From the IMG/VR virus record IMGVR_UViG_2585427763_000004: 47,112 nucleotides of DNA; one strand, given 5' to 3'. This document shows positions 4,933 to 18,175 of this stretch, one piece after another (position 1 is the first letter of the stretch; every line of letters begins with the position of its first letter). This DNA comes from a virus. Taxonomy: Duplodnaviria > Heunggongvirae > Uroviricota > Caudoviricetes. The translations under genes and the position numbers were made by a program. Below the pieces are notes generated by a model. That model had not been told where the DNA came from. It saw nothing but the letters and a program-made list of their open reading frames with translations, and searched no databases.

Positions 4933-5101
4933 GATGGCAGCCTCCGCGATGAATTTGATTAACTCACCACCGAGGTTTTCCACGACCATAAGGGTGGTGA
5001 GACGTACAGGGGTGGAAATACCGGTCATCACGGAACCCGGCCAGCCTTGCGGCTGCCCTGCACGCCCCACCATAATGCGAATGTGGCTGTGCTTAACGCA
5101 T

Positions 5102-5124
5102 AAAAAAACCGCCTGAGCGCGGTT
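5102..5124 (-). terminator. Rho-independent terminator (minus-strand transcription)
   Basis: Plus-strand sequence AAAAAAACCGCctgagcGCGGTT. On the minus strand this reads stem AACCGC / GCGGTT followed by a U7 run. Confidence 0.45.
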
Positions 5125-5775
5125 ATGCGCCGTGAATGATTTCGGGTTTCCACGCCCGGCACCCGTTTTATGAGGTGCAGGTGCACTATAATTCCACCCG
5201 TTCTGGTTTTCAATAGCTACATTCAACATTTTCTCTACCTTTCATCACCGAAGTGAACTTTGTTGATGCGGTGCCTGGTGCCTCCAGGTGACGTTAACCA
5301 GTTAACAATTAACGTCGGATACAGAGCATTCCCGTTACGCCCGTAAAAGACCGCTTGTTTTAACTGTTCCGCGTGCGCTGAGCCGCATTCACCGCATCAC
5401 AAAATTCACTTTAAAAAGGGCGGCAGAGCAGTCACGGAGTAGAACTGATACCGCCAAAAGTCACCAGAAAATTGATAACAGAGGGCGTTGCAGCGGAGTT
5501 GTCACTTAAGCGTATGGTCAACCTGACAACCCGGTGTCCTCAACGGGGGAAGGAATAACCCCGCCATACTTACCGCCGCGCCATTTCGCGGATTGCCACA
5601 ACCGGAAGCGCACGATCGAATTAAATTTAACGACGACCTATACAGAGAGACTAACTTCTCCGGGCGCTTTCGTGTTATGCCCTGACTTTTCAGGGATATA
5701 TCCTTTTCAGTAAACTGTCAGTGCCGGATTCTTATCCGTGTCCGGCGCACGCACTCTACCTCACCTGTGAATAAA

Positions 5776-11579: not shown

Positions 11580-11790
11580 AAAACGGAAACCTGATTACAG
11601 ATTCCCAGATAAGGCAATGAGCTACCTGGCGTAGAGTGGGCTGATAAGTATGGGGAATGTTTTACGATGAATATTTAGACTAAAGAGTTTGTAACGCTAT
11701 GTAAGTGATTTTTTCTGGTTTAGATATTTATATGTCCGGCCAAATTGAGGTGTGTTTAAATGTAATTGCACATTGATTGTAGGGGGAATA

Positions 11791-11970
11791 ATGAAAAACG
11801 CATTGCAGTTTTTGTTTGTTGCGTTCTGGTTGTTCGCATCATGTATGCCCATCATCTTCACAGCAAGGTATATGGAAAAAATTGATGTTTTGATATTAAT
11901 GTTTGGACATATAAATGCCCTTTTTTTAGGGGTGTTCATGGCGGTCACGTGCATTGAATACTGGCGGTAA
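11791..11970 (+). CDS. Small hydrophobic protein (2 predicted TM helices) in an AT-rich island
   Basis: Track ORF 11752..11970. Internal ATG at 11791 is preceded by AGGGGGA. Product MKNALQFLFVAFWLFASCMPIIF... Low-GC context. Confidence 0.3.
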   Translation: MKNALQFLFVAFWLFASCMPIIFTARYMEKIDVLILMFGHINALFLGVFMAVTCIEYWR

Positions 11971-12229
11971 ATACAGCGAACGCTATTGGTTTAGTTGGAT
12001 ATTTACTGTGCCGGACAAAAACGGTTTGCAGGGAAATCTTAGTTAAGTAGAATGACTGTGGGTGCTTGAGGCTATCTGTCTCAGGCATGAACACCAAAAG
12101 GCAGATAGAGAAAAGCCCCAGTTAACATTACGCGTCCTGCAAGACGCTTAACATTAATCTGAGGCCATATCTATGCTCTACACACGTAGGTTAGCCTCTT
12201 ACGTGCCGAAAGGCAAGGAGAAGCAGGCT

Positions 12230-12385
12230 ATGAAGCAGCAAAAGGCGATGCTAATCGCCCTGATCGTCATCTGTTTAACCGTCATAGTGACGGCACTGGT
12301 AACGAGGAAAGACCTCTGCGAGGTACGAATCCGAACCGGCCAGACGGAGGTCGCTGTCTTCACAGCTTACGAACCTGAGGAGTAA
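12230..12385 (+). CDS. hok: Hok/Gef-family type I toxin
   Basis: 51-aa product MKQQKAMLIALIVICLTVIVTALVTRKDLCEVRIRTGQTEVAVFTAYEPEE. It has the family pattern: TM helix, then LTRK-x-LCE[IV]R ... E-V-A-x-F-x-AYE. A longer upstream in-frame reading frame starts at 12173. A terminator follows. Confidence 0.75.
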   Translation: MKQQKAMLIALIVICLTVIVTALVTRKDLCEVRIRTGQTEVAVFTAYEPEE

Positions 12386-12453
12386 GAGACCGGGCGGGGG
12401 AGAAATCCCTCGCCACCTCTGATGTGTCAGGCATCCTCAACGCACCCGCACTT

Positions 12454-12480
12454 AACCCGCTTCGGCGGGGTTTTGTTTTT
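12454..12480 (+). terminator. Rho-independent terminator at the hok mRNA 3' end
   Basis: AACCCGCttcgGCGGGGTTTTGTTTTT: GC stem, tetraloop, U-run. Confidence 0.7.
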
Positions 12481-12604
12481 ATTTTCAACGCGTTTGAAGT
12501 TTTAGATGGTGCCGGAATAGAATCAAAAATACTTAAGTAGCGCGCAGGGAGAAGAGGGATGGACCCCGAAGGGGAAGAGCTATTTATCTGGAAGGATTCT
12601 GAAG

Positions 12605-12778
12605 ATGAAAATCGAAGAATTACGTGAAATTTTTAGTGAAGATGGCCTCTATGCTGTGCGCGTTGAGAATGGGGGTATTACCTACACAGCGTTAATTCCT
12701 GATGATCATGTAGTGTTATCTGTTGAGGCATTCATTGAATACTTGGAAAGACTCGGTTTCAAGGTAGTTCGGGAATAA
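12605..12778 (+). CDS. Hypothetical small protein (57 aa)
   Basis: Below the track cutoff; manual translation gives MKIEELREIFSEDGLYAVRVENGGITYTALIPDDHVVLSVEAFIEYLERLGFKVVRE, stop TAA at 12776-12778. Coding-like composition. Confidence 0.35.
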   Translation: MKIEELREIFSEDGLYAVRVENGGITYTALIPDDHVVLSVEAFIEYLERLGFKVVRE

Positions 12779-17036: not shown

Positions 17037-17112
17037 GGCCCTTTAGCTCAGTGGTGAGAGCGAGCGACTCATAATCGCCAGGTCGCTGGTTCAAATCCAG
17101 CAAGGGCCACCA
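17037..17112 (+). tRNA. tRNA with CAU anticodon (Met or lysidine-modified Ile2; ileZ-like of lambdoid/Stx phages)
   Basis: 76-nt cloverleaf folded by hand. Acceptor GGCCCTT/AAGGGCC, D-arm GCTC..GAGC, anticodon loop CUCAUAA, T-arm GCTGG-TTCAAAT-CCAGC, 3' ACCA. Confidence 0.85.
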
Positions 17113-17212
17113 TCACAAACCGCCATTAGCTTATCAGGAAGAGCAGACGACACGATAACAGGGTTGTTGGTGCGGGGGCGGGTCCCCGATGACGGTCCAT
17201 TATCGGTATTCA

Positions 17213-17289
17213 GCGTTGTTAGCTCAGCCGGACAGAGCAATTGCCTTCTAAGCAATCGGTCACTGGTTCGAATCCAGTACAGCGCGCCA
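17213..17289 (+). tRNA. tRNA-Arg (anticodon UCU)
   Basis: 77-nt cloverleaf folded by hand. Acceptor GCGTTGT/ACAGCGC (one G-U), anticodon stem ATTGC/GCAAT with loop CUUCUAA, T-loop TTCGAAT, 3' GCCA. Confidence 0.85.
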
Positions 17290-17753: not shown

Positions 17754-18146
17754 ATACATATCTGGATTATCACCGGTTACGGTAAAAAGTGATTGCTTAC
17801 TGTTTTTGTGAATGGCATTGCAGCAGCCGGATAATGTCAGTGCTGGCTGACGGTGTGCTGGTGGCGGGTGTGGTGGTTGCTGCTTTCCCGTTGCTGAAAA
17901 AGAAAACGCCAGACTGTTAGCCGGGTATCAGTTAGCGGGAGAAATTTTTAAATACTTCACAATTCAGGCGGTTGACTGTTGTCTGGTTTGCGGGGAGTTT
18001 GTTAAAAGAAACTGGCATGGTGAATCCCCCTGTGCGGAGGGGCAATCAGCGAGTAGGTATATGGGATAATCGCGGATTCAGGTGCTGGTACTGAATTCAC
18101 CGGGAGGCACCCGGCACCATGCAATGGCACATAGCGCCACTCTCCA

Positions 18147-18175
18147 GCCCCTCTCCGGAGGGGCTGTTTATATTG
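18147..18175 (+). terminator. Rho-independent terminator
   Basis: Perfect 7-bp stem GCCCCTC tccg GAGGGGC followed by TGTTTATATTGATTTT. Confidence 0.55.

What the first reader, a model, noticed from the sequence alone, without database searches (positions are those of the whole stretch)
11580..12500. hok-type type I toxin on an AT-rich island in the nin region
A 51-aa Hok/Gef-family toxin (12230..12385) with the family's 3' terminator sits in a low-GC island. The island also contains a 59-aa two-helix membrane peptide ORF (11791..11970). Hok loci need an antisense Sok RNA and an overlapping mok frame. An in-frame upstream start at 12173 exists, but a Sok promoter cannot be confirmed by eye. 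In Qin-type prophages hokD neighbours a DUF968 gene, as here.
Basis: partly seen in the sequence, partly recalled or inferred. Interest (0 to 1): 0.45.

Follow-up and report, generated by a model that had tools for sequence, protein, structure and literature searches.

The report
Intact prophage hok/mok/sok toxin module
This is a complete, ordinary copy of the well-known hok/sok (hokD/hokW-type) RNA-controlled toxin cassette carried by a lambda-like E. coli prophage, so it is already known rather than new.

Summary
Window 12230-12385 (+) encodes a 51-aa Hok/Gef toxin (Pfam E=1.2e-23), annotated hokD in 4939 of 5426 complete E. coli genomes. Unlike the truncated K-12 hokD, this copy keeps the whole regulatory apparatus:
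- hok promoter at 12025-12053
- mRNA 5' end (tac) at 12060, which pairs with fbi at 12435-12447
- mok start at 12173, in frame with hok as in mokC and mokW
- terminator at 12456-12469

It lies on the minus strand at 12181 to about 12111/12105, and its promoter is TTGCCT-17-TAACCT (12216 to 12188). The annotated sokC of K-12 and sokW of phage 933W both map to exactly these coordinates. The promoter stretch is identical to that of 933W. The hokW-sokW of VT2-Sakai/Sp5, a phage with the same-strength match to this window, has been shown experimentally to be a type I toxin-antitoxin.

The hok module itself is 50-54% GC. The AT-rich stretch (about 11672-12040) is a separate upstream module. It carries a 59-aa two-helix ORF that RefSeq does not annotate, that is probably real, and whose function is unknown.

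Verdict: already known, low interest. Two minor extras: the Sok recognition tail is hypervariable, and the 59-aa ORF recurs next to hok.

The parts
12025..12053 (+). hok (mok-hok) mRNA promoter: -35 TTTGCA (12025-12030), 17-nt spacer, -10 TAGAAT (12048-12053). The predicted start site is G at 12060.
   Evidence: Promoter scan, 9/12 match. The -10 aligns with the R1 hok -10 TATGAT at the same 6-nt distance from the mRNA 5' end (the R1 -10 is mutationally defined in PMC9841398). TAGAAT is kept in 64 of 69 distinct modules.
12060..12480 (+). Full-length mok-hok mRNA (about 420 nt): leader, mok/hok coding region, 3' UTR with fbi, and terminator.
   Evidence: Rfam RF01794 covers 12060-12235 at 117 bits against a gathering score of 59. 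MFE is -168.5 kcal/mol, z=-6.3 against shuffles. In 69 related modules 96% of cells are paired and 26 pairs change on both sides, against 4.4 in shuffles and 5-14 in slid controls. Conservation falls off outside about 12040 and 12480.
12060..12072 (+). tac (translational activator element) at the mRNA 5' end, GGGTGCTTGAGGC.
   Evidence: Invariant in 69 of 69 modules. It pairs with fbi in the full-length fold. It switches to ucb when the 3' end is removed in silico.
12078..12083 (+). ucb (upstream complementary box), GTCTCA. It is complementary both to tac (TGAGGC) and to the mok SD region (TGAGGC, 12160-12165).
   Evidence: Read directly from the sequence. In the fold of the 3'-shortened RNA, 12066-12072 pairs with 12078-12084. 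Assigned by analogy with the R1 model (PMC9841398).
12105..12181 (-). Sok antisense RNA gene ('SokD'). The 5' end is at 12181. The 3' end is at 12111 by the 933W sokW annotation, or 12105 by the K-12 sokC annotation. It has a 15-nt single-stranded 5' tail complementary to 12167-12181 (which includes the mok AUG), then a long hairpin and a U tail.
   Evidence: Annotated sokC maps to 12181-12105. Annotated sokW maps to 12181-12111. The fold shows a free 15-nt tail plus a hairpin of -28.7 kcal/mol, z=-4.6. Hairpin pairs covary (helix 5).
12188..12216 (-). Sok promoter: -35 TTGCCT (12216 to 12211), 17-nt spacer, -10 TAACCT (12193 to 12188).
   Evidence: It is positionally homologous to R1 TTGCGC-17-TATCCT (the R1 promoter hexamers are from my own recollection, and PMC9841398 places the Sok promoter mutation inside dcb). 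The stretch is 100% identical to the same stretch of 933W mokW/sokW. sokW of Sp5 is transcribed from its own promoter (PMC8621323). The spacer is 17 nt in 69 of 69 modules. The -35 is TTGCCT or TTGACC. The -10 is TAACCT, TAATCT or (C)AATCT. The simple consensus scan does not call it.
12161..12164 (+). mok Shine-Dalgarno sequence GAGG, 8 nt upstream of the mok ATG.
   Evidence: Read from the sequence. TGAGGC is conserved in 68 of 69 modules.
12173..12385 (+). mok reading frame (70 codons). It is in frame with hok and shares its stop, like mokC and mokW.
   Evidence: ORF list. The mokC ATG and the mokW ATG both map to 12173. The ATG is kept in 69 of 69 modules. It is in frame with hok in 60 and out of frame in 9.
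12193..12199 (+). dcb (downstream complementary box), AGCCTCT. It is complementary to the mok SD and overlaps the Sok -10 on the other strand.
   Evidence: AGCCTCTTAC is conserved from R1 to hokC to this locus. PMC9841398 states that the Sok promoter mutation lies in dcb.
12230..12385 (+). hok toxin gene (HokD type, 51 aa) with SD AAGGAG at 12215-12220. The Tyr47 codon TAC at 12368-12370 sits in a TTACGAA context.
   Evidence: Pfam HOK_GEF E=1.2e-23. Annotated hokD in RefSeq. It differs from HokW at 5 of 51 residues, all within the last 7 (45, 46, 49, 51 plus 44). It is 42% identical to R1 Hok, with LCE and AYE kept.
12435..12447 (+). fbi (fold-back inhibition element), CCTCAA-C-GCACCC. It pairs with tac over 12 bp with one bulged C.
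   Evidence: Pairs 12060-12065/12442-12447 and 12066-12071/12435-12440 in the MFE. 99% of cells are paired in 69 modules, but there is almost no variation, so there is no covariation inside this subfamily. R1 mRNA makes the same 5'-3' closure with a different sequence.
12456..12480 (+). Intrinsic terminator of the hok mRNA (CCCGC-TTCG-GCGGG plus a T run).
   Evidence: Terminator scan. Four of its 5 stem pairs show changes on both sides (helix 19).
11672..12040 (+). AT-rich module upstream of hok (GC 0.36-0.38). It is a separate recombination unit and contains the hok -35 at its right edge.
   Evidence: Composition. Only 17 of 82 hok loci carry it. It is present in 1568 of 5426 E. coli genomes. 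Where present, the hok leader follows at a fixed distance in 71 of 73 loci.
11791..11970 (+). 59-aa ORF with two hydrophobic segments. It is probably a real small membrane protein of unknown function and is not a known hok/sok component.
   Evidence: Intact in 77 of 79 loci. No Pfam or PHROG family. A same-length homologue at 44% identity has 24 invariant positions. Identity by codon position is 0.58, 0.69 and 0.49. Against: all close-range variants change the amino acid, and RefSeq does not annotate it.

Best explanation
Window 12025-12480 is a complete hok/mok/sok type I toxin-antitoxin cassette of the hokD/hokW subfamily. It lies in the early-right ('nin') region of a lambdoid E. coli prophage.

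Proposed mechanism, transferred from plasmid R1 hok/sok and from Sp5 hokW-sokW (all steps inferred unless marked as shown):
1. A weak promoter (12025-12053) makes a stable mRNA of about 420 nt starting at 12060.
2. The 5' tac element of this mRNA is clamped to the 3' fbi element (12435-12447). The mRNA is therefore neither translated nor bound by Sok.
3. Slow 3' trimming removes fbi. tac then folds onto ucb, and the mok ribosome-binding site (12161-12175) is exposed.
4. Ribosomes starting at mok (12173) are needed for Hok to be made. Here mok is in frame with hok.
5. A short, unstable antisense RNA is made constitutively from the minus-strand promoter at 12216 to 12188. It starts at 12181, and its 15-nt free tail is complementary to the mok start. 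It pairs with the processed mRNA, blocks mok, and triggers RNase III cleavage.
6. When Sok synthesis stops, for example on loss of the element or on prophage induction, the mRNA reservoir is translated. The 51-aa Hok inserts in the inner membrane and collapses it.

Shown here: the sequence features, the predicted folds, and coordinate-exact homology to annotated sokC, mokC, sokW and mokW. Not shown here: transcription, processing, toxicity, and the biological role. The role could be prophage maintenance, faster lysis at induction as reported for hokW, or exclusion of other phages.
For: Toxin:
- Pfam HOK_GEF covers the full length, E=1.2e-23.
- RefSeq annotates it as hokD.
- It differs from HokW at 5 of 51 residues.

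Leader:
- Rfam RF01794 scores 117 bits over the whole model, on the hok-sense strand, ending at the hok ATG.

Intactness:
- K-12 hokD is homologous only from about 12216 onward. This locus and most relatives keep the 170-nt leader.

Sok:
- Annotated sokC and sokW both map to 12181 to 12105/12111.
- The predicted RNA has a 15-nt free tail, a hairpin and a U tail.
- The promoter stretch is identical to that of 933W.
- Takada et al. showed that sokW of Sp5 is made from its own promoter and neutralises HokW (PMC8621323).

mok:
- The ATG is conserved in 69 of 69 modules and coincides with mokC and mokW.

RNA switch:
- tac pairs with fbi in the full-length fold.
- tac pairs with ucb once the 3' end is removed.
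- R1 mRNA gives the same closure.
- 26 covarying pairs, against 4.4 in shuffles.

Promoter and terminator.
Against: - No expression or toxicity data exist for this copy.
- The Sok -10 (TAACCT) matches the consensus at only 3 of 6 positions, and the generic promoter scan does not call it.
- The tac-fbi helix is nearly invariant within this subfamily, so it has no covariation support here.
- In the in-silico fold of the shortened RNA, the mok SD stays inside the hairpin instead of pairing with dcb as in the R1 model.
- Chromosomal hok loci tested by others did not give post-segregational killing (as summarised in preprint 10.1101/2025.08.07.668861).
Confidence: 0.9

Rival explanations
1. The cassette is a silent relic. 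The sequence looks intact, but like the chromosomal hok loci of laboratory strains it no longer kills or stabilises anything. It persists only because it hitch-hikes on the prophage.
For: [quoted passage not shown] Related copies are often destroyed: K-12 hokD lacks its leader, PhiR42_1 has an IS at the hok start, and a decayed hok fragment lies in the ttcA-uspF remnant.
Against: Every element is intact here. The hok coding sequence is nearly invariant across 68 distinct modules (pi=0.007). The promoters, tac, fbi and mok ATG are conserved. The 93%-identical hokW-sokW is toxic, is neutralised by its Sok, and affects phage release (PMC8621323). R1 hok is toxic from a single chromosomal copy (PMC9841398).
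Confidence: 0.15
2. The 59-aa membrane ORF (11791-11970) is a functional third partner of the hok cassette. It could be an immunity or modulator protein, or a second membrane toxin. In that case the unit is larger than classical hok/sok.
For: Wherever the AT-rich module occurs, the hok leader follows at a fixed distance (71 of 73 loci). A homologue at 44% identity in a Rac-type prophage remnant again lies directly upstream of hok-derived sequence. The ORF is probably coding.
Against: Most hok modules lack it (65 of 82 loci), including the experimentally functional hokW-sokW, whose upstream sequence differs. The linkage can be explained by shared descent of one recombination block. There is no family assignment. 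Close-range variation is entirely non-synonymous. In the remnant the ORF survives while hok is dead, so it does not need hok.
Confidence: 0.1
3. The module's main role is defence of the lysogen against other phages by abortive infection or exclusion, not prophage maintenance or help with lysis.
For: R1 hok/sok on a high-copy plasmid reduced T4 plating by 42% (cited in PMC8621323). hok genes are enriched about four-fold in prophages (preprint).
Against: The same preprint found no enrichment of hok next to defence systems. For the closest characterised relative, the measured effect is on the prophage's own release.
Confidence: 0.2

Closest known systems
mokW/hokW/sokW of Stx2 phages 933W and VT2-Sakai (Sp5)
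   Same: 92.8% nucleotide identity over window 12041-12457. Same architecture. mok is in frame with hok. The Sok hairpin and Sok promoter stretch are identical. The annotated sokW, mokW and hokW coordinates map exactly onto 12181-12111, 12173 and 12230. Both lie in lambdoid prophages. The system has been shown experimentally to be a type I TA that speeds phage release (PMC8621323).
   Different: The Sok 5' tail and mok codons 2-5 differ (6 of the first 17 nt of Sok). The Hok C-terminus differs (VFTAYEPEE against VFVDYESEK). The sequence downstream of fbi, including the terminator, is unrelated. The location in the phage genome differs: position about 58.4 kb of the 61.7-kb 933W record, against the nin region here.
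hokD (relF) of the E. coli K-12 Qin prophage
   Same: Hok protein of the same sequence (coding region invariant in the three-way alignment apart from one synonymous C/T). Same 3' UTR, fbi and terminator. Same downstream neighbours: rem, then a DUF968 gene that is 85% identical.
   Different: K-12 has relBE fused about 14 nt upstream of the hok ATG. It therefore lacks the hok promoter, tac, ucb, the mok start, the Sok gene and most of the Sok promoter. The window copy is the intact ancestral form.
hok/mok/sok (parB) of plasmid R1
   Same: The same ordered set of elements: promoter, tac, ucb, Sok hairpin, SDmok, mok ATG, dcb with the Sok -10, Sok -35, SDhok, hok, fbi. These can be aligned column by column. 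The predicted full-length mRNA makes the same 5'-3' closure. Hok is 42% identical.
   Different: In R1 mok is out of frame with hok; here it is in frame. The Sok hairpin here is longer. The tac and fbi sequences differ (GGCGCUU/AAGCGCC against GGGUGC-UUGAGG/CCUCAA-C-GCACCC). R1 is a plasmid stability locus; this one is prophage-borne.
hokC (gef)/mokC/sokC of the E. coli K-12 chromosome
   Same: mokC is an in-frame N-terminal extension of HokC, as here. The annotated sokC maps exactly to the predicted Sok here.
   Different: K-12 hokC has IS186 next to its 3' end, and its alignment with the window breaks down there, so no fbi or terminator could be aligned. It is a chromosomal locus, not a prophage one.

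Membership tests
[quoted passage not shown] | Small Hok/Gef toxin ORF of about 50 aa: N-terminal transmembrane helix and a conserved C-terminal part with the L-C-E motif | tested here: met
   Pfam PF01848 matched 1-42/42, E=1.2e-23. The alignment with R1 Hok keeps TRK-LCE-R-R-G-EVA-F-AYE.
[quoted passage not shown] | Long structured hok mRNA leader homologous to other hok leaders | tested here: met
   Rfam RF01794 scores 117 bits (gathering score 59) over positions 1-157/157 at 12060-12235 (+). Despite its name, this model matches the hok-sense strand and ends at the hok AUG.
[quoted passage not shown] | Overlapping mok reading frame whose start lies in the Sok target region | tested here: met
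   The ATG at 12173 with GAGG 8 nt upstream coincides with the annotated mokC and mokW starts. The ATG is kept in 69 of 69 modules.
[quoted passage not shown] | cis-encoded antisense Sok RNA gene with its own promoter, a single-stranded 5' tail, and a terminator hairpin | tested here: met
   Located by homology at minus strand 12216 to about 12105. Annotated sokC and sokW map here. The fold gives a 15-nt tail, a hairpin and UUUU. The promoter is identical to that of 933W. Transcription itself was not tested.
[quoted passage not shown] | Long-range tac-fbi pairing that closes the full-length mRNA, and an alternative tac-ucb pairing after 3' trimming | tested here: met
   Tested in silico only. 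The MFE pairs 12060-12071 with 12435-12447. With the 3' end removed, tac pairs with 12078-12095. There is no covariation in tac-fbi within the subfamily.
[quoted passage not shown] | Hok kills or arrests cells, and Sok neutralises it through RNase III-dependent mRNA decay | not testable with these tools
   Demonstrated for the 93%-identical hokW-sokW (PMC8621323) and for R1 (PMC9841398). Not demonstrated for this copy.
hokD subfamily as named by RefSeq/NCBI | Hok protein sequence equal or nearly equal to K-12 HokD (RelF) | tested here: met
   The coding region is invariant in the alignment with K-12 hokD apart from one C/T difference at 12251, which is synonymous (CTA/TTA, Leu). RefSeq labels the identical DNA as hokD.

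The most novel reading that the evidence does not exclude
The unannotated 59-aa two-helix membrane protein gene (11791-11970) defines a small uncharacterised protein family that travels with hok cassettes. It is found in two lineages at 44% identity, each directly upstream of hok or a hok remnant. It could act with or against Hok at the membrane, for example as a modulator or immunity factor. Separately, the Sok 5' tail and mok start patch (12167-12181) may be under diversifying selection, which would keep co-resident prophage hok/sok copies from cross-reacting.
Probability: 0.12. Interest if true: 0.45.

Novelty: already known. Interest (0 to 1): 0.12.

Why it matters
It matters little as a discovery. 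hok/sok is a textbook system. Prophage copies have carried mokW/hokW/sokW annotation in the 933W phage record (AF125520), and the closest relative has been tested experimentally. The practical value is in annotation. RefSeq marks only the hokD coding sequence at this locus, while the mok frame, the Sok RNA gene and the mRNA elements can be placed to the base. This copy, unlike the K-12 reference hokD, is regulatory-complete and therefore potentially active. The 59-aa ORF and the hypervariable Sok tail are cheap leads for anyone studying small membrane proteins or cross-talk between antisense RNAs.

Tried and rejected
1. The generic sigma-70 scan did not find the Sok promoter. It was placed by homology instead.
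2. Covariation support for tac-fbi inside the hokD subfamily failed, because both elements are almost invariant. The single R1 row was mis-registered in the alignment, so R1 was folded separately.
3. The 59-aa ORF has no hit in Pfam or PHROGs.
4. A word-indexed protein search gave only homologues at 75% identity or above. The exhaustive representative search was needed to find the 44% homologue.
5. A genome-contig scan with P0036 returned nothing.
6. I tested whether co-resident hok copies in one genome carry different Sok tails. Only two genome pairs were available, one identical and one different, so the result is uninformative.
7. Weak Rfam hits in the AT-rich region (ceN65, ceN48, MEG8_3) fall below their gathering scores and come from eukaryotic families, so I dismissed them.
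8. The minus-strand 85-aa ORF 11697-11954 and a minus-strand terminator-like hairpin at 11607-11584 were considered and left as probable chance. The number of terminator-like matches equals the shuffle expectation.
9. The idea that hok itself sits in an AT-rich island was rejected.
Full report
**Observation**

The region was read directly and its ORFs listed. ORF 12230-12385 (+) encodes MKQQKAMLIALIVICLTVIVTALVTRKDLCEVRIRTGQTEVAVFTAYEPEE. It matches Pfam HOK_GEF over the whole model (E=1.2e-23, 82.9 bits against a cutoff of 22). The in-frame ATG at 12173 gives a 70-aa frame. A GC-rich hairpin plus a T run lies at 12456-12469. The 59-aa ORF at 11791-11970 exists and has two hydrophobic stretches.

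The composition profile corrects one point. The AT-rich stretch (GC 0.36-0.38) is 11600-12050. The hok module itself is 50-54% GC.

**Context**

The 921-bp finding matches 4939 of 5426 complete E. coli genomes, and the gene under the match is annotated hokD. In the best-matching genome the neighbours run in this order: YdaS/YdaT, replication genes, DUF1627, DUF4406, DUF4752, hokD, DUF968, RusA, DUF1133, a methyltransferase and tRNAs. This is the early-right region of a lambdoid prophage. The window as a whole also carries DicF, C4, isrK, STnc100 and two tRNAs.

In K-12 Qin the order is relB-relE-hokD-rem-ydfU-ydfT. YdfU is 85% identical to the window's DUF968 protein.

**Is the locus complete?**

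Aligned with K-12, homology begins only about 14 nt before the hok ATG. Upstream of that point K-12 has relE. The window and a wild strain share a 170-nt leader instead. Rfam RF01794 ('sok') matches 12060-12235 at 117 bits, over the whole model. The match is on the hok-sense strand and ends at the hok AUG. So the model captures the hok mRNA leader, and Sok is complementary to that leader.

I retrieved the R1 parB sequence (100% match to plasmid records), K-12 hokC/mokC/sokC, a phage Rac hok locus and phage 933W mokW/hokW/sokW, and aligned them with the window.

- The annotated sokC maps to minus strand 12181 to 12105, and the annotated sokW to 12181 to 12111.
- The mokC and mokW start codons both map to 12173.
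- The hokC and hokW starts both map to 12230.

The window is 92.8% identical to the 933W and VT2-Sakai locus over 12041-12457.

**Promoters**

The plus-strand scan finds TTTGCA-17-TAGAAT at 12025-12053. This puts the start site at G12060, which is the first base of the Rfam match. The spacing equals that between the mutationally defined R1 -10 (TATGAT; PMC9841398) and the R1 mRNA 5' end.

The Sok promoter is not called by the generic scan. By position it is TTGCCT-17-TAACCT on the minus strand (12216 to 12188). This corresponds to TTGCGC-17-TATCCT in R1. The R1 hexamers are from my own recollection. PMC9841398 confirms that the Sok promoter mutation lies inside dcb, which is where the -10 falls here. 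The stretch 12188-12229 is base-for-base identical to 933W.

For hokW-sokW of Sp5, Takada et al. showed four things (PMC8621323):
- HokW is toxic.
- sokW expressed from its own promoter neutralises it.
- Mutations in the -10 abolish protection.
- sokW RNA is seen on Northern blots and disappears after mitomycin C.

**RNA structure**

The 421-nt transcript folds to -168.5 kcal/mol (z=-6.3). Bases 12060-12071 pair with 12435-12447, which is the tac-fbi closure. R1 mRNA gives the same 5'-3' closure with different sequences. When the 3' 48 nt are removed in silico, tac pairs with 12078-12095 (ucb). This is the switch described for R1 (model as summarised in PMC9841398). In that fold, however, the mok SD remains inside the hairpin and does not pair with dcb.

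The predicted Sok RNA (12181 to 12111) has a free 15-nt 5' tail, a long hairpin and UUUU (z=-4.6).

On an alignment of 69 distinct related modules, the window's MFE structure is 96% paired. It has 26 pairs with changes on both sides, against 4.4 +/- 1.7 in shuffles and 5-14 in slid controls. The informative helices are the 5' stem (A-U to G-C at 12074/12106), the Sok hairpin, a 3' UTR hairpin and the terminator. tac-fbi is almost invariant, so it has no covariation support within this subfamily.

**Population view**

Eighty IMG/VR loci encoding the identical Hok gave 69 distinct modules.
- Three of the 80 lack the leader. At least two of these are the K-12-like relE-fused form.
- The conserved module runs from about 12040 to 12480.
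- tac is invariant. The mok ATG is kept in all 69. The Sok spacer is always 17 nt. The -35 is TTGCCT or TTGACC. The -10 is TAACCT, TAATCT or (C)AATCT.
- mok is in frame with hok in 60 modules and out of frame in 9. Eight of those nine end at a TGA overlapping the hok ATG. The frame relation is therefore not constrained.
- Nucleotide diversity peaks sharply in the Sok 5' tail and mok codons 1-3. For 12167-12181, pi=0.34. It is 0.05 in the Sok promoter and 0.06 in tac-ucb. It is 0.007 in hok, though that value is biased low by how the loci were chosen.

**The AT-rich module and the 59-aa ORF**

Only 17 of 82 hok loci carry the segment 11580-12040. hokW does not have it. Conversely, in 79 IMG/VR loci found through a 30-mer inside the ORF, the hok leader follows at a fixed 88-89 nt in 71 of the 73 loci that have enough downstream sequence. 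The ORF is intact in 77 of the 79. The module occurs in 1568 of 5426 genomes.

The evidence on whether the ORF is a gene is mixed.
- RefSeq does not annotate it, and it has no Pfam or PHROG family.
- All close-range variants change the amino acid (about 10 non-synonymous, 0 synonymous). This gives no sign of purifying selection at that scale.
- An exhaustive search found a 59-aa homologue at 44% identity (P0036/P0046). It has 24 invariant positions clustered in the motifs SCxPII, LMFGHxNAL..GVF and IExWR.
- Identity by codon position is 0.58, 0.69 and 0.49. That pattern favours a real protein.

The homologue lies in a Rac-type prophage remnant between ttcA and uspF, on more than 1000 E. coli contigs. 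It is followed within about 55 nt by a decayed hok fragment that carries a stop codon and has lost the Cys. The linkage to hok is therefore old. It does not show a functional tie.

**Mechanism and role**

The best explanation is the R1 and hokW mechanism mapped onto these coordinates (see the Best explanation section). The identification as a complete hok/mok/sok cassette is very secure.

Activity of this copy, and its role, are inferred. Three roles are possible: prophage maintenance, acceleration of lysis on induction as for hokW, or exclusion of other phages. Against activity, others found that chromosomal hok loci did not perform post-segregational killing (summarised in preprint 10.1101/2025.08.07.668861).

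The same preprint reports that hok genes are about four-fold enriched in prophages. It also reports that hokC, hokD and hokE mRNAs undergo A-to-I recoding of a Tyr codon to Cys. The corresponding codon here is TAC at 12368-12370, in a TTACGAA context.

**Verdict**

The open question about the Sok promoter is resolved by homology. The feature is already known and well characterised, so interest is low. The minor leads are the hok-linked 59-aa membrane ORF and the hypervariable Sok recognition tail.

Noticed in passing
window 12167-12187: The Sok 5' tail, mok codons 1-3 and the Sok discriminator are hypervariable among 68 distinct modules that all encode the identical Hok. There are 18 variants, and pi is 0.34 in the tail against 0.05 in the flanks. 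This fits selection for non-cross-reacting Sok specificities among co-resident prophages, or mosaic recombination.
   Followed up: partly
window 12173-12230, and loci L008, L018, L027, L030, L044, L059, L063, L084: mok is in frame with hok here and in 60 of 69 modules, so translation of mok would itself yield a 70-aa extended Hok. In 8 modules a 1-nt length change puts mok out of frame, and it ends at a TGA overlapping the hok ATG. One module is R1-like.
   Followed up: partly
window 11791-11970; L209:2501-2680; L210:4001-4180: The 59-aa two-helix ORF has a 44%-identical, same-length homologue in a Rac-type prophage remnant between ttcA and uspF, on more than 1000 E. coli contigs. There too it lies directly upstream of a decayed hok fragment. 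RefSeq annotates neither copy in the records inspected.
   Followed up: partly
L009, L015, L016, L031, L037, L040, L051, L052, L069 (about 100-400 nt upstream of the hok leader): A different 27-aa hydrophobic ORF (MTWPEAFTTVGIAMAVALVVYSICRWG and variants) recurs upstream of hok in several otherwise unrelated prophage contexts. It is absent from this window.
   Followed up: no
window 12368-12370: The Tyr47 codon TAC lies in TTACGAA, a context like the TadA target. [quoted passage not shown] HokW keeps the same CTACGAA context.
   Followed up: no
window 12494-12523: A promoter-like site, TTGAAG-18-TAGAAT, lies just after the hok terminator and upstream of the rem-like ORF. It is conserved in K-12 Qin.
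   Followed up: no
window 12605-12778: The rem-like ORF is only 57 aa, against 83 aa for K-12 Rem (PHROG 340 positions 13-68 of 85). The best-matching RefSeq genome marks it as an incomplete pseudogene.
   Followed up: no
window 4990-5469 (-), 17037-17286 (+), 17986-18175 (+): Other RNA genes of the prophage score above their Rfam gathering thresholds: C4 antisense RNA (4990-5077), isrK (5102-5178), DicF (5418-5469), two tRNAs (17037-17109 and 17213-17286) and STnc100 (17986-18175).
   Followed up: no
L088 (phage PhiR42_1, PV340562.1), about 1852 onward: In this ECOR13 phage an insertion sequence (transposase genes) interrupts the locus exactly at the start of the hok coding sequence. The AT-rich module and the leader are left intact. 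This is another example of hok inactivation by an IS.
   Followed up: partly
window 12060-12235: Rfam family RF01794 is named 'sok antitoxin', but it matches the hok-sense strand (the mRNA leader up to the hok AUG). A hit therefore reports the wrong strand for the Sok RNA itself.
   Followed up: yes
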